Origin: a virus | Taxonomy: Duplodnaviria; Heunggongvirae; Uroviricota; Caudoviricetes | DNA: 11,220 nt | Strand: one strand, 5' to 3' | IMG/VR virus record: IMGVR_UViG_2529292832_000020 | Shown: piece by piece, positions 8,775 to 10,884 of the stretch | How positions within the stretch are numbered: position 1 is the first letter of the stretch | Layout of the letters: every line of letters begins with the position of its first letter | The notes under the pieces: generated by a model | What the model saw: only the letters and a program-made list of their open reading frames with translations | What the model was told of the DNA's origin: nothing | Database searches by the model: none | Program-made: the position numbers and the translations under genes

Positions 8775-8794
8775 AGGTCGGTCATGAGCACTAA
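8615..8794 (+). CDS. hypothetical small protein from a TTG start (59 aa), or the C-terminal part of a frameshifted gene
   Basis: Open frame with AAGGAG 8 nt upstream of TTG at 8615; translation [59 protein letters not shown] has balanced composition. Overlaps the O-like start by 11 nt. Below the track's length threshold. Confidence 0.3.
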
Positions 8795-9740
8795 ATTAAC
8801 CGGCTATGTATGGGATGGTTGCGCTGCATCAGGCATGAAGTTATCCAGCGTGGCAATTATGGCCCGCCTGGCTGATTTCAGTAATGACGAAGGTGTGTGC
8901 TGGCCATCAATTGAAACCATTGCCCGTCAGATTGGAGCGGGGATGAGTACCGTCAGAACGGCTATCGCACGGCTGGAAGCAGAAGGCTGGTTAACGCGTA
9001 AGGCGCGTCGCCAGGGTAACCGCAATGCGTCGAATGTTTATCAGCTTAACGTTGCGAAGCTTCAGGCAGCGGCATTTTCTCAACTGTCAGATTCTGACCC
9101 GTCAAAATCTGACGCATCAAAATCTGACGCATCAAAATCTGACCCGTCAAAATTTGATGCGTCGAAATCTGGCAAAAAAGCGGGTTTTCACCCGTCAGAA
9201 TCTGGCGGGGATCCGTCAGTAAAATCAAAACATGATCCGTCAGATAAAAAACCTTCTCGTCCGGACGCTTCGCAACCGGACACGCAGACGGCTGAACAGG
9301 ATTTTTTAACTCGCCATCCTGATGCGGTTGTATTCAGCCCTAAAAAGTGCCAGTGGGGGACGCAGGATGATTTGACCTGCGCACAGTGGCTCTGGAAAAA
9401 AATCATCGCCCTGTACGAGCAGGCTGCCGAATGTGACGGCGAGGTGGTTCGTCCCAAAGAACCGAACTGGACAGCCTGGGCAAACGAAATTCGCCTGATG
9501 TGTGTACAGGATGGGCGTACTCACAAACAAATCTGCGAGATGTACAGCCGCGTCAGCCGCGATCCGTTCTGGTGCCGTAACGTGCTCAGCCCGTCGAAGT
9601 TGCGGGAAAAATGGGATGAGCTTTCCCTGCGCTTATCGCCGTCCGTCAGCACGTACACCGAAAAACGCGAAGACCCGTACTTCAAAGCCAGTTACGACAA
9701 CGTGGACTACAGCCAGATCCCGGCAGGATTCAGGGGGTGA
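8784..9740 (+). CDS. phage replication initiation protein (O-like; N-terminal helix-turn-helix domain, repeat-encoded linker, C-terminal domain)
   Basis: 318-aa ORF, ATG at 8784 with GAGG upstream. N-terminal ...SVAIMARLADFSNDEGVCWPSIETIARQIGAGMSTVRTAIARLEAEGWLT is a winged-helix replication-initiator domain; the central DPSKSDASKSDASKSDPSKFDASKS repeat is encoded by tandem DNA iterons, as in lambda O. Confidence 0.8.
   Translation: MSTKLTGYVWDGCAASGMKLSSVAIMARLADFSNDEGVCWPSIETIARQIGAGMSTVRTAIARLEAEGWLTRKARRQGNRNASNVYQLNVAKLQAAAFSQLSDSDPSKSDASKSDASKSDPSKFDASKSGKKAGFHPSESGGDPSVKSKHDPSDKKPSRPDASQPDTQTAEQDFLTRHPDAVVFSPKKCQWGTQDDLTCAQWLWKKIIALYEQAAECDGEVVRPKEPNWTAWANEIRLMCVQDGRTHKQICEMYSRVSRDPFWCRNVLSPSKLREKWDELSLRLSPSVSTYTEKREDPYFKASYDNVDYSQIPAGFRG
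9084..9255 (+). repeat. iteron array, probable replication origin embedded in the initiator gene
   Basis: Six tandem 15-bp units (consensus TCAAAATCTGACGCA) from 9088 to 9177, then a short A-rich stretch GGCAAAAAAG and further CCGTCAG-containing repeats (9191-9245). Confidence 0.6.
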
Positions 9741-9742
9741 TC

Positions 9743-10231
9743 ATGAGTCTTTTGAATGACGTTCAGAAATTCATTGAAGCCCATCCGGGCTGTACTTCCG
9801 GAGACATTGCGGATGCTTTTGCAGGTTACTCACGGCAGCGCGTACTGCAGTCAGCAAGCAAGTTACGTCAGAGTGGGCGTGTGGCTCACCGTTGTGAAGG
9901 AGATACACGCAGACATTTCCCACGCCTGACTGAGAGAGCGCAGGAGCCGGAACCACAACCAGTTCGTGAAACCAGACCTGTGCGCAATTTCTATGTCGGC
10001 ACTAACGATCCCCGGGTGATTTTGTGCCTGACCCGCCAGGCGGAAGAACTGGAGTCCAGGGGCTTATACCGTCGTGCTGCAACGGTGTGGATGGCGGCAT
10101 TCCGTGAAAGCCACTCCCAGCCAGAACGAAACAATTTTCTGGCGCGTCGTGAGCGGTGCTTACGGAAAAGCAGCAAGCGCGCTGCATCGGGTGAAGAGTG
10201 GTATCTGTCAGGGAATTACGTGGGGGCTTAA
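9743..10231 (+). CDS. ANR-family / PerC-like transcriptional regulator domain protein
   Basis: Start placed at ATG 9743 (track starts at GTG 9737) with GGGGG upstream, 2 nt after the O-like stop. The C-terminal LYRRAATVWMAAFRES...ERNNFLARRERC matches the ANR/PerC signature as I recall it. Confidence 0.5.
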   Translation: MSLLNDVQKFIEAHPGCTSGDIADAFAGYSRQRVLQSASKLRQSGRVAHRCEGDTRRHFPRLTERAQEPEPQPVRETRPVRNFYVGTNDPRVILCLTRQAEELESRGLYRRAATVWMAAFRESHSQPERNNFLARRERCLRKSSKRAASGEEWYLSGNYVGA

Positions 10232-10884
10232 TGAGTAATAAATATTGCCAGGCGCTGGTGGAGCTGCGGAACAAACCAGCCCATGAACTGAAGGAAGTGG
10301 GCGATCAGTGGCGCACGCCGGATAACATTTTCTGGGGAATTAACACCCTGTTTGGCCCGTTTGTTCTGGATCTGTTCACTGATGGTGATAACGCCAAATG
10401 TGCCGCTTATTACACTGCGGAAGACAACGCGCTGGCGCATGACTGGTCTGAACGTCTTGCGGAGCTTAAAGGTGCTGCCTTTGGTAATCCCCCGTACAGC
10501 CGCGCCAGTCAGCATGAAGGGCAATACATCACCGGCATGCGTTACATCATGAAGCATGCTAGTGCCATGCGTGATAAGGGCGGACGCTATGTTTTCCTGA
10601 TCAAAGCTGCCACCAGCGAAGTGTGGTGGCCGGAAGATGCAGATCATATTGCTTTTATTCGCGGGCGTATTGGTTTTGAACTGCCTGCCTGGTTTATCCC
10701 GAAGGACGAGAAGCAGGTGCCGACAGGCGCTTTCTTCGCTGGTGCTATTGCTGTTTTCGACAAGACCTGGAAGGGACCGGCAATCAGCTACATCGGGCGC
10801 GATGAACTTGAGGCATGTGGTGAGGCGTTTCTGGCGCAGGTTCGCCAGCAGGCAGAAAAACTGGTCAGGGAGATGGCGGCATGA
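10231..10884 (+). CDS. phage Dam-like DNA N6-adenine methyltransferase (orphan, 217 aa)
   Basis: ATG at 10231 overlapping the upstream stop (TAATG); the track starts at an upstream GTG. Catalytic NPPY motif present (AFGNPPYS); no restriction partner in the window. Confidence 0.82.
   Translation: MSNKYCQALVELRNKPAHELKEVGDQWRTPDNIFWGINTLFGPFVLDLFTDGDNAKCAAYYTAEDNALAHDWSERLAELKGAAFGNPPYSRASQHEGQYITGMRYIMKHASAMRDKGGRYVFLIKAATSEVWWPEDADHIAFIRGRIGFELPAWFIPKDEKQVPTGAFFAGAIAVFDKTWKGPAISYIGRDELEACGEAFLAQVRQQAEKLVREMAA

What the first reader, a model, noticed from the sequence alone, without database searches (positions are those of the whole stretch)
9084..9255. Replication origin inside the initiator gene: in-frame 15-bp iterons encoding an SKSDA-repeat linker
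Six tandem 15-bp units (TCAAAATCTGACGCA and variants, 9088-9177) are followed by a short A-rich stretch and further CCGTCAG repeats. They are read in frame as DPSKSDASKSDASKSDPSKFDASKS inside the O-like protein, mirroring ori-lambda inside gene O. Iteron copy number is likely variable between relatives and would set replicon specificity.
Basis: partly seen in the sequence, partly recalled or inferred. Interest (0 to 1): 0.45.

Follow-up and report, generated by a model that had tools for sequence, protein, structure and literature searches.

The report
Replication origin inside phage initiator gene
A run of 15-base repeats inside a prophage's replication-initiator gene is very probably the phage's own replication origin, laid out like the classic phage lambda origin; this is an expected arrangement, shown here by comparison for this gene family but not by experiment.

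Summary
Six in-frame 15-bp units lie at 9087-9176, a seventh copy lies at 9195-9209, and two GATCCGTCAG elements follow. All sit inside gene 8784-9740 of an SfII/SfIV/CPS-53-type E. coli prophage.

The protein has three parts:
- an HTH_36 winged-helix N-domain;
- a disordered linker, which the repeats encode;
- a C-domain homologous to that of lambda O.

Four lines of evidence say the repeats are selected as DNA:
- Synonymous codons are 81-96% identical to diverged relatives in the repeat region, against 35-56% in the N-domain.
- The conserved core is an 11-bp palindrome, TCAGAWTCTGA. It includes the four-fold degenerate third positions of the serine codons.
- One relative carries a copy in another reading frame.
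- A relative with the same C-half but a different N-domain has six 23-bp-spaced repeats, in all three frames, at the same place.

Copy number runs from 2 to 10 among relatives. The position matches the lambda and phi80 iterons.

It is a new member of a known kind.

Side note: the protein ends in the C-terminal peptide of host DnaT, and no helicase-loader gene lies next to it.

The parts
8784..9740 (+). Replication initiator gene (318 aa). It is an intact version of the gene that is 5'-truncated in E. coli K-12 yfdO (prophage CPS-53).
   Evidence: ORF. Pfam HTH_36 4e-11. PHROG 391 'replication initiation O-like' 5e-135. 96-98% identical genes in phages SfII, SfIV and Kati, annotated as replication/primosomal protein. 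K-12 yfdO matches nt 234-957 only.
8784..9089 (+). Codes for the N-terminal winged-helix DNA-binding domain (aa 1-102), the presumed iteron reader.
   Evidence: AlphaFold2 model with pLDDT 70-87 and a helix-turn-helix plus beta-wing. Foldseek's best PDB matches are MarR/ArsR-type winged-helix DNA binders. Pfam HTH_36.
9087..9176 (+). Array of six 15-bp units. The conserved core is TCA-RAA-TCT-GA, followed by a variable 3-4 nt spacer. The first unit is a perfect 6+1+6 palindrome, GTCAGA-T-TCTGAC (9086-9098). These are the proposed iterons.
   Evidence: Copy number is 2-10 in relatives.
9177..9194 (+). Spacer with an A-tract and a T-tract (AAAGCGGGTTTTCACCCG; with the preceding AAA it gives A6-N5-T4).
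   Evidence: Sequence. The A-run/T-run layout is kept in relatives but the GC stem is not.
9195..9209 (+). Isolated seventh copy of the unit (TCAGAATCTGGCGGG). It lies 33 bp after unit 6 in the window, SfIV, phiNP, Eeyore, YeP2 and Stx2_KH16-043.
9210..9253 (+). Two GATCCGTCAG elements (9210-9219 and 9234-9243) bracketing and followed by A/T-rich runs. 9220-9251 is 75% A+T. This is the best candidate for the unwinding region. It encodes the nearly invariant GGDPSV...DPS peptide.
9244..9281 (+). Block ATAAAAAACCTTCTCGTCCGGACGCTTCGCAACCGGAC. It is kept even in relatives that have a different N-domain or a different C-domain. It is either a common part of the origin or a module-exchange junction.
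   Evidence: Alignments. Megablast breakpoints at gene nt 458-494.
9090..9281 (+). Region that codes for the disordered interdomain linker (aa 103-166).
   Evidence: AlphaFold2 pLDDT below 50 and no secondary structure for residues 103-166. Length is hypervariable in the protein alignment.
9282..9647 (+). Codes for the helical C-domain (aa 167-288). Residues 171-282 are homologous to the C-domain of lambda O and phi80 gp15.
   Evidence: tblastn 39% identity, E 1e-17 to lambda O and 35% to phi80 gp15. BLASTP E 8e-26. pLDDT 72-91.
9711..9737 (+). Codes for the C-terminal peptide SQIPAGFRG, which matches the last nine residues of E. coli DnaT (SQIPPGFRG).
   Evidence: The 76 bp at the 3' end are shared at 97-99% identity with many phages that have otherwise different initiators.

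Best explanation
The segment from about 9087 to about 9281 is the vegetative replication origin of this lambdoid prophage. It is embedded in the part of the initiator gene that codes for a disordered linker.

Proposed mechanism:
1. Dimers of the N-terminal winged-helix domain of the gene's own product bind the palindromic cores (TCAGAWTCTGA) of the 15-bp units, the isolated seventh unit and probably the two GATCCGTCAG elements.
2. The resulting nucleoprotein complex destabilises the adjacent A/T-rich stretch (about 9220-9251).
3. The lambda-O-type C-domain and the DnaT-like C-terminal peptide then bring in the host helicase machinery, since the phage encodes no loader of its own.

Status of each step. 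Shown here: the repeat, its DNA-level conservation, its co-variation with the N-domain, its lambda-like position, its copy-number polymorphism and the domain architecture. Inferred: binding, unwinding, origin firing and the route of helicase loading.
For: 1. The array is unique in the window and statistically extreme.

2. DNA-level selection. In seven relatives from Citrobacter, Klebsiella, Yersinia and E. coli phages, codons for conserved residues are identical in 81-96% of cases in codons 99-156, against 35-56% in the N-domain (Fisher p 2e-8 to 0.05). Nucleotide identity exceeds amino-acid identity only in that region.

3. In 55 units from 11 genes, positions 4-14 are conserved. This includes the four-fold degenerate third positions of both serine codons (TCA 51/55, TCT 51/55). 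The spacer codon varies.

4. The core is a palindrome, as expected for a winged-helix dimer.

5. Phage Stx2_KH16-043 has a copy, TCAGAATCTGAC, in a different reading frame.

6. Mosaic co-variation. phiNP, Eeyore and YeP2 keep this N-domain and the 15-bp array with an unrelated C-domain (Phg_2220_C in phiNP). mEp460_4F5 keeps the C-half (97% nt identity) with a different N-domain, and there it has six GGTCAAARTGAC repeats spaced 23-24 bp apart in all three frames.

7. 15 of 17 HTH_36-type and related initiator genes examined have an array of period 15, 21, 23 or 24 directly after the DNA-binding domain.

8. Same place as proven origins. Lambda iterons lie at gene nt about 349-435. The gp15 sites annotated in phi80 lie at nt 365-441, just before the shared C-domain. 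Here the units lie at nt 304-393 and 412-426.

9. The linker is predicted to be disordered, so the protein tolerates the DNA constraint.

10. For lambda and Stx phages, an origin in the middle of O, iteron number differing between phages (4 versus 6, adding 13 residues to O), and loss of replication after silent iteron mutations are all published (PMC7466680).
Against: - There is no experiment for this replicon. I found no paper that maps an origin in SfII, SfIV, SfV or CPS-53.
- The A/T-rich element is short and only 68-75% A+T. By my count on the sequence, the lambda AT-rich tract is about 40 bp and about 75-80% A+T.
- A 15-bp spacing (1.4 helical turns) is unusually tight for iterons. It puts neighbouring sites on nearly opposite faces of the helix.
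- A widespread Salmonella relative keeps only two units, and some protein variants lack most of the array. A long array is therefore not essential.
- Units within one array are not independent, so the Fisher p values overstate significance.
- All copies in this window are in one frame. The window alone cannot separate protein-level from DNA-level repetition.
Confidence: 0.75

Rival explanations
1. The initiator does bind the repeats, but they serve control rather than initiation. Possible roles are autoregulation, titration or handcuffing of the initiator, or a roadblock to transcription. DNA opening would then occur elsewhere, for example only in the conserved block 9210-9281 or outside the gene.
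For: Array length is very plastic, at 2-10 units. A two-unit version sits in an apparently intact and widespread Salmonella prophage. The most invariant DNA is downstream of the array, at 9189-9281. In Stx phages the distal extra iterons are bound only weakly (PMC7466680).
Against: No other repeat array or comparable motif cluster exists in the 11-kb early region. The arrangement and position match proven lambda and phi80 origins. In P27 even the weakly bound iterons were needed for replication.
Confidence: 0.12
2. It is only a coding tandem repeat: a slippage-prone, low-complexity Ser/Lys/Asp linker with no function as DNA.
For: The period is 15 bp, or 5 codons. All copies in this window are in frame. 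The encoded segment is predicted to be disordered. Copy number varies in steps of 15 bp, as slippage would produce.
Against: Synonymous positions are conserved far more than in the flanking domain, while the peptide itself is less conserved. The core is palindromic. One relative has an out-of-frame copy. Relatives with other N-domains have arrays of 23-24 bp in all three frames at the same site, with no peptide repeat.
Confidence: 0.06
3. The conserved DNA is a recombination 'linker', a homology patch kept because it mediates exchange of N- and C-domain modules among lambdoid phages. It would have no role in replication.
For: Mosaic breakpoints fall at gene nt 458-494. The block 9244-9281 is shared by genes with different N- or C-domains.
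Against: This could explain the shared block but not the N-domain-specific, palindromic, tandemly repeated units upstream of it. Nor does it explain why the units differ between N-domain types.
Confidence: 0.05

Closest known systems
ori-lambda inside gene O of phage lambda (and the six-iteron origins of Stx phages 933W and P27)
   Same: The origin lies in the middle of the initiator gene, in the part coding the linker between a DNA-binding N-domain and the C-domain. It consists of tandem sites with dyad symmetry followed by an A/T-richer stretch. Iteron number differs between relatives and changes the protein length. The C-domains are homologous (39% identity).
   Different: The N-domain is HTH_36, not Phage_rep_O. 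The units are 15 bp apart and all in frame. Lambda sites are about 19 bp long, spaced 20-24 bp apart and fall in different frames. The AT-rich tract is weaker. No P gene follows. The protein ends in a DnaT-like peptide.
phi80 gene 15 origin
   Same: Four gp15-binding sites are annotated at gene nt 365-441, with a 21-bp period, just upstream of the homologous C-domain.
   Different: phi80 has a different N-domain family and iteron sequence. It has a P-like partner, gp14.
mEp460_4F5-type initiator (same C-half, other N-domain)
   Same: It has the same C-domain, the same downstream block and the same neighbouring genes, with a repeat array at the same position.
   Different: It has six GGTCAAARTGAC sites at 23-24 bp spacing in all three frames. 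Its N-domain is unrelated and has no Pfam hit.
DopC and E. coli DnaT
   Same: Brezellec et al. 2017 (PMC5509034) describe DopC as an HTH_36 O-like protein with a DnaT C-terminal motif. The protein here ends in SQIPAGFRG, against SQIPPGFRG in DnaT.
   Different: The authors found no iterons in dopC. Here only the last 9 residues resemble DnaT (about 20 residues in relative L007), not the DnaT DNA-binding domain.
Plasmid iteron replicons (Rep_3/RepA type, e.g. pSC101, R6K, P1) - from general knowledge
   Same: They also use directly repeated initiator-binding sites next to an A/T-rich region.
   Different: Their iterons are 17-22 bp long and lie outside the rep gene. Their Rep has two winged-helix domains. 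No Rep_3 or other plasmid Rep family matches above Pfam's threshold here; the only weak hit is RP-C, below its cut-off.

Membership tests
Lambda-type intragenic origin (ori within the O-like initiator gene) | Several directly repeated sites inside the initiator gene, in the interdomain-linker coding region | tested here: met
   Six units at 9087-9176 plus one at 9195. The linker aa 103-166 is disordered.
Lambda-type intragenic origin (ori within the O-like initiator gene) | Each site has internal dyad symmetry | tested here: met
   The core is TCAGAWTCTGA. The first unit is a perfect 6+1+6 palindrome.
Lambda-type intragenic origin (ori within the O-like initiator gene) | Site sequence co-varies with the initiator's N-terminal DNA-binding domain, while the C-domain can be exchanged | tested here: met
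Lambda-type intragenic origin (ori within the O-like initiator gene) | Adjacent A/T-rich unwinding region (about 40 bp and clearly A/T-rich in lambda) | tested here: inconclusive
   The best stretch, 9220-9251, is 75% A+T over 32 bp and is interrupted by GATCCGTCAG. A 40-bp window peaks at 68%.
Lambda-type intragenic origin (ori within the O-like initiator gene) | Initiator C-domain homologous to the lambda O C-domain | tested here: met
   39% identity over aa 171-282, tblastn E 1e-17, BLASTP E 8e-26.
Lambda-type intragenic origin (ori within the O-like initiator gene) | Initiator N-domain of Pfam family Phage_rep_O (PF04492) | tested here: not met
   The N-domain is HTH_36 (PF13730), with no PF04492 hit at E <= 0.01. 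Lambda O and phi80 gp15 hit PF04492 at 6e-36 and 6e-25.
Lambda-type intragenic origin (ori within the O-like initiator gene) | P-like, DnaC-like or helicase partner gene immediately downstream | tested here: not met
   Downstream are a PerC-like gene (yfdN) and Dam. The same holds in SfIV and strain E6.
Lambda-type intragenic origin (ori within the O-like initiator gene) | Initiator binds the sites, and the fragment supports initiator-dependent replication | not testable with these tools
   This needs EMSA or footprinting and a mini-replicon assay.
Plain coding tandem repeat (no DNA-level function) | Peptide conserved while synonymous sites drift; repeats only in multiples of three; no dyad symmetry | tested here: not met
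   Codon identity is 81-96% against 35-56% in the flank. Nucleotide identity exceeds amino-acid identity. There is an out-of-frame copy. Arrays of 23-24 bp occur in relatives.
Plasmid Rep_3-type iteron replicon | Rep_3 or other plasmid Rep protein with iterons outside the gene | tested here: not met
   No plasmid Rep family reaches Pfam's cut-off. The only hit is RP-C at E 0.0048, 17.2 bits against a cut-off of 24.4. The repeats are intragenic.

The most novel reading that the evidence does not exclude
This is a 'solo' lambda-type replicon. The initiator carries a lambda-O C-domain plus the C-terminal peptide of host DnaT, and it uses that peptide in place of a phage P or DnaC-like loader. The peptide would plug the intragenic origin directly into the host helicase-loading or restart machinery (DnaB-DnaC, or PriA/PriB). 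Meanwhile, slippage in the in-frame 15-bp array changes iteron number and linker length together, giving a fast-evolving dial for origin strength. In the loci I looked at, the peptide was present in 9 initiators with no loader gene next door. It was absent from 8 initiators that do have one, and two loci were undecided.
Probability: 0.3. Interest if true: 0.55.

Novelty: new member of a known kind. Interest (0 to 1): 0.3.

Why it matters
This replication module is very common. A copy covering at least 80% of the gene is present in 1,577 of 5,426 complete E. coli genomes, and part of it survives in K-12 as yfdO. Even so, records annotate the gene only as 'helix-turn-helix protein', 'primosomal protein' or 'protein O', with no origin feature.

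Placing the cis-acting origin has several uses:
- It gives a testable map for SfII/SfIV-type serotype-converting phages and their E. coli relatives.
- It explains why a coding repeat is conserved at silent sites.
- It provides a replicon-typing marker (N-domain plus iteron type, and unit number).
- It flags a group of lambda-like replicons that lack a helicase loader.

It does not change the current understanding of phage replication.

Tried and rejected
- **Positive control for the codon test.** I tried a proven origin, phi80 gp15, against HK225 and Proteus phage Pm34. HK225 is identical to phi80 and Pm34 is too diverged, so the control was uninformative.
- **Literature.** No paper in the held library maps an origin for SfII, SfIV, SfV or CPS-53. 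The SfV genome paper is not held. 'Initiator-solo' modules (Weigel & Seitz 2006, recalled from memory) could not be checked.
- **RNA element.** Rfam finds only the tRNA at 1369-1441.
- **DnaA boxes.** There are none in the window.
- **GATC.** It is not enriched overall.
- **Terminator-like hairpin.** The one on the minus strand at 9194-9181 has a stem that is not conserved in the Klebsiella relative, so I treat it as chance.
- **Solved structures.** Sequence search gives only weak MarR-type hits. Fold search identifies the N-domain as a generic winged helix and gives nothing for the C-domain.
- **Plasmid records.** Some circular, phage-sized 'plasmids' carry the module with no plasmid replicon type. 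This fits episomal phage DNA but says nothing about where the origin lies.
- **Function of the DnaT tail.** The 2026 preprimosome paper does not discuss the last residues of DnaT.

Full report
**Context.** The window starts in proA (1-1254). A tRNA follows at 1369-1441, annotated tRNA-Thr in strain E6. After it come an integrase and the early region of a lambdoid prophage. E. coli strain E6 carries the same element at 99.9% identity, with the same gene order: LexA-type repressor, Cro-like, CII-like (CP76), DUF4222, the gene of interest, PerC-like yfdN, Dam, RusA, KilA-N and Q. The closest isolated phages are Kati, SfII and SfIV, at 97-98% over the gene. K-12 yfdO in cryptic prophage CPS-53 is a copy that lacks the first 233 nt.

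**The observation.** Tandem Repeats Finder gives a single array in the window: 9093-9171, period 15, 5.3 copies, score 102.
- In register there are six units at 9087-9176.
- An A6/T4 spacer follows, then a seventh copy at 9195-9209.
- Two GATCCGTCAG elements lie at 9210 and 9234.
- The core TCARAATCTGA (at most 1 mismatch) occurs seven times, all within 9087-9205. Shuffles give 0.52 +/- 0.69.

**The protein.** It has four parts.
- The N-terminus (aa 1-102) is an HTH_36 winged helix. Its structural neighbours are MarR/ArsR-type DNA binders that work as dimers.
- Residues 103-166, the part the repeats encode, are predicted to be disordered. They are hypervariable in length among homologues.
- Residues 171-282 are homologous to the C-domain of lambda O (39% identity, tblastn E 1e-17, BLASTP E 8e-26) and of phi80 gp15.
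- The last nine residues, SQIPAGFRG, match the C-terminus of E. coli DnaT, SQIPPGFRG. This explains the 'primosomal protein I' labels in phage records.

Lambda O and phi80 gp15 have a Phage_rep_O N-domain; this protein does not. It is thus a mosaic of a non-O winged helix, an O-type C-domain and a DnaT-like tail.

**Is the repeat selected as DNA or as peptide?** Four tests point to DNA.
1. *Codon identity.* I made codon-level comparisons with seven relatives whose N-domains are 58-88% identical: phiNP, Klebsiella phage 1 LV-2017, Eeyore, YeP2, an E. coli prophage, Stx2_KH16-043 and KpnBHU6. Where the residue is the same, the codon is also the same in only 35-56% of N-domain positions but in 81-96% of positions in codons 99-156. 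Only in that region does nucleotide identity exceed amino-acid identity (Fisher p 2e-8 to 0.05, inflated by non-independence of the units).
2. *Position-by-position conservation.* In 55 units from 11 genes, positions 4-14 (TCA RAA TCT GA) are conserved. This includes the four-fold degenerate third positions of both serine codons (51/55 each). The spacer codon varies at its first and third positions. The conserved core is an imperfect 11-bp palindrome, and the first unit is a perfect 6+1+6 palindrome.
3. *An out-of-frame copy.* In Stx2_KH16-043 a further copy, TCAGAATCTGAC, lies in another reading frame.
4. *Relatives with other DNA-binding domains.* They carry arrays of other periods at the same place. 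15 of 17 genes examined have one directly after the DNA-binding domain, with period 15, 21, 23 or 24. mEp460_4F5 shares the C-half and downstream genes at 97% identity but has an unrelated N-domain. It has six GGTCAAARTGAC sites spaced 23-24 bp apart in all three frames and no peptide repeat.

Conversely, phiNP, Eeyore and YeP2 keep this N-domain and the 15-bp array but have a different C-domain (Phg_2220_C in phiNP). The repeats therefore travel with the DNA-binding domain, as iterons do.

**Position.**
- Lambda's four iterons lie at gene nt about 349-435, and its AT-rich tract follows.
- The phi80 record annotates four gp15 binding sites at gene nt 365-441.
- In both, the homologous C-domain starts at about nt 510-520.
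- Here the units lie at nt 304-393 and 412-426, and the C-domain homology starts at nt 511.
- Published work on lambda and Stx phages establishes this architecture. It also shows that iteron number differs between phages (4 versus 6, adding 13 residues to O) and that silent iteron mutations abolish replication (PMC7466680).

**Copy number.**

| Units | Where found |
|---|---|
| 5 (942-bp gene) | 71 of 75 IMG/VR loci with this N-domain |
| 6 (as in this window) | 3 of those 75 loci |
| 7 | 1 of those 75 loci; E. coli 10034292-3 |
| 3 | E. coli MS 69-1 |
| 2 | a widespread Salmonella prophage with an apparently intact early region |
| 10 | a Klebsiella prophage |

Its further claim that copy number sets specificity is not what the data suggest. 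Specificity follows the unit sequence and the N-domain. For example, the relative L007 has STVKSAI instead of STVRTAI in the recognition helix and GTCAA-N3-TTGAC units.

**Weak points.**
- The A/T-rich element is modest: 68% in the best 40-bp window, and 75% over 9220-9251.
- The 15-bp spacing is tight.
- No DnaA box is present.
- Nothing here shows binding or initiation, and I found no paper that maps this origin.
- The most invariant DNA is the block 9189-9281, downstream of the array. The array may therefore be an accessory, expandable part of the origin. The rival reading, in which the sites serve control rather than opening, cannot be excluded.

**Helicase recruitment.** No P-like, DnaC-like or helicase gene is next to the initiator.
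- Among the loci examined, nine initiators end in (I/L/V)P-x-GFR(G/S/T). None of them has such a neighbour.
- Eight initiators lack the peptide: lambda, phi80, Pm34, phi24B, SI5, S1249, RothC and Stx2_KH16-043. All eight have a loader or helicase gene next door.
- Two cases are undecided.
- Brezellec et al. noted a DnaT C-terminal motif in the O-derived DopC (PMC5509034).
- The papers I could read do not say what the last residues of DnaT do.
- That the peptide links the origin complex to host loading machinery is therefore an inference.

**Verdict.** It is a new, comparatively well-supported member of the lambda-type 'origin inside the initiator gene' class, not a new kind of system. Interest is moderate to low. 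The loader-less, DnaT-tailed architecture is the part most worth following up.

Noticed in passing
window 9711-9737 (and L002, L003, L007, L088, L089, L092, L095, L096 gene ends): The initiator ends in SQIPAGFRG, the C-terminal peptide of host DnaT. In the loci examined this peptide occurs only in initiators that have no P-like, DnaC-like or helicase gene next door (9 with the peptide and no loader; 8 without it and with a loader; 2 undecided).
   Followed up: partly
window 9210-9243: Two GATC sites lie 24 bp apart, both within GATCCGTCAG. They are conserved in relatives, and the phage encodes a Dam methylase 1 kb downstream (10198-10884). Methylation-sensitive origin control is conceivable.
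   Followed up: no
window 9244-9281: The block ATAAAAAACCTTCTCGTCCGGACGCTTCGCAACCGGAC is shared by initiator genes with different N-domains or different C-domains. Mosaic breakpoints fall here.
   Followed up: partly
E. coli K-12 NC_000913.3 2472878-2473586 (hit H60): K-12 yfdO (cryptic prophage CPS-53) is a 5'-truncated copy. It keeps the repeat array and C-domain but lacks most of the winged-helix domain: an orphan origin without its reader.
   Followed up: no
window 9181-9194, minus strand: A terminator-like hairpin (CGGGTGAAAACCCG followed by a T-run) lies between units 6 and 7. The stem is not conserved in the Klebsiella relative, so it is probably chance.
   Followed up: partly
plasmid records NZ_CP081716.1, CP085522.1, NZ_CP081704.1 (L107, L108): Circular, phage-sized (37-44 kb) records deposited as plasmids carry this replication module and have no plasmid replicon type. 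They are probably episomal phage DNA.
   Followed up: partly
window 9737-10231: The gene that overlaps the initiator's stop codon (yfdN) has a PerC-like C-half and an N-half of unknown function. It follows the initiator in SfIV, SfV-like phages, mEp460 and ST64B, but not in phiNP or the Klebsiella phages.
   Followed up: no
L100 739-825 versus window 9087-9209: Lambda iterons (TCCCTCAAAACGAGGGA) and the units here share a central TCAAAA. BLASTP aligns lambda iteron 4 (CYPSKQGD) with the seventh unit here (FHPSESGG). This could be shared ancestry or convergence on a bent A-tract.
   Followed up: no
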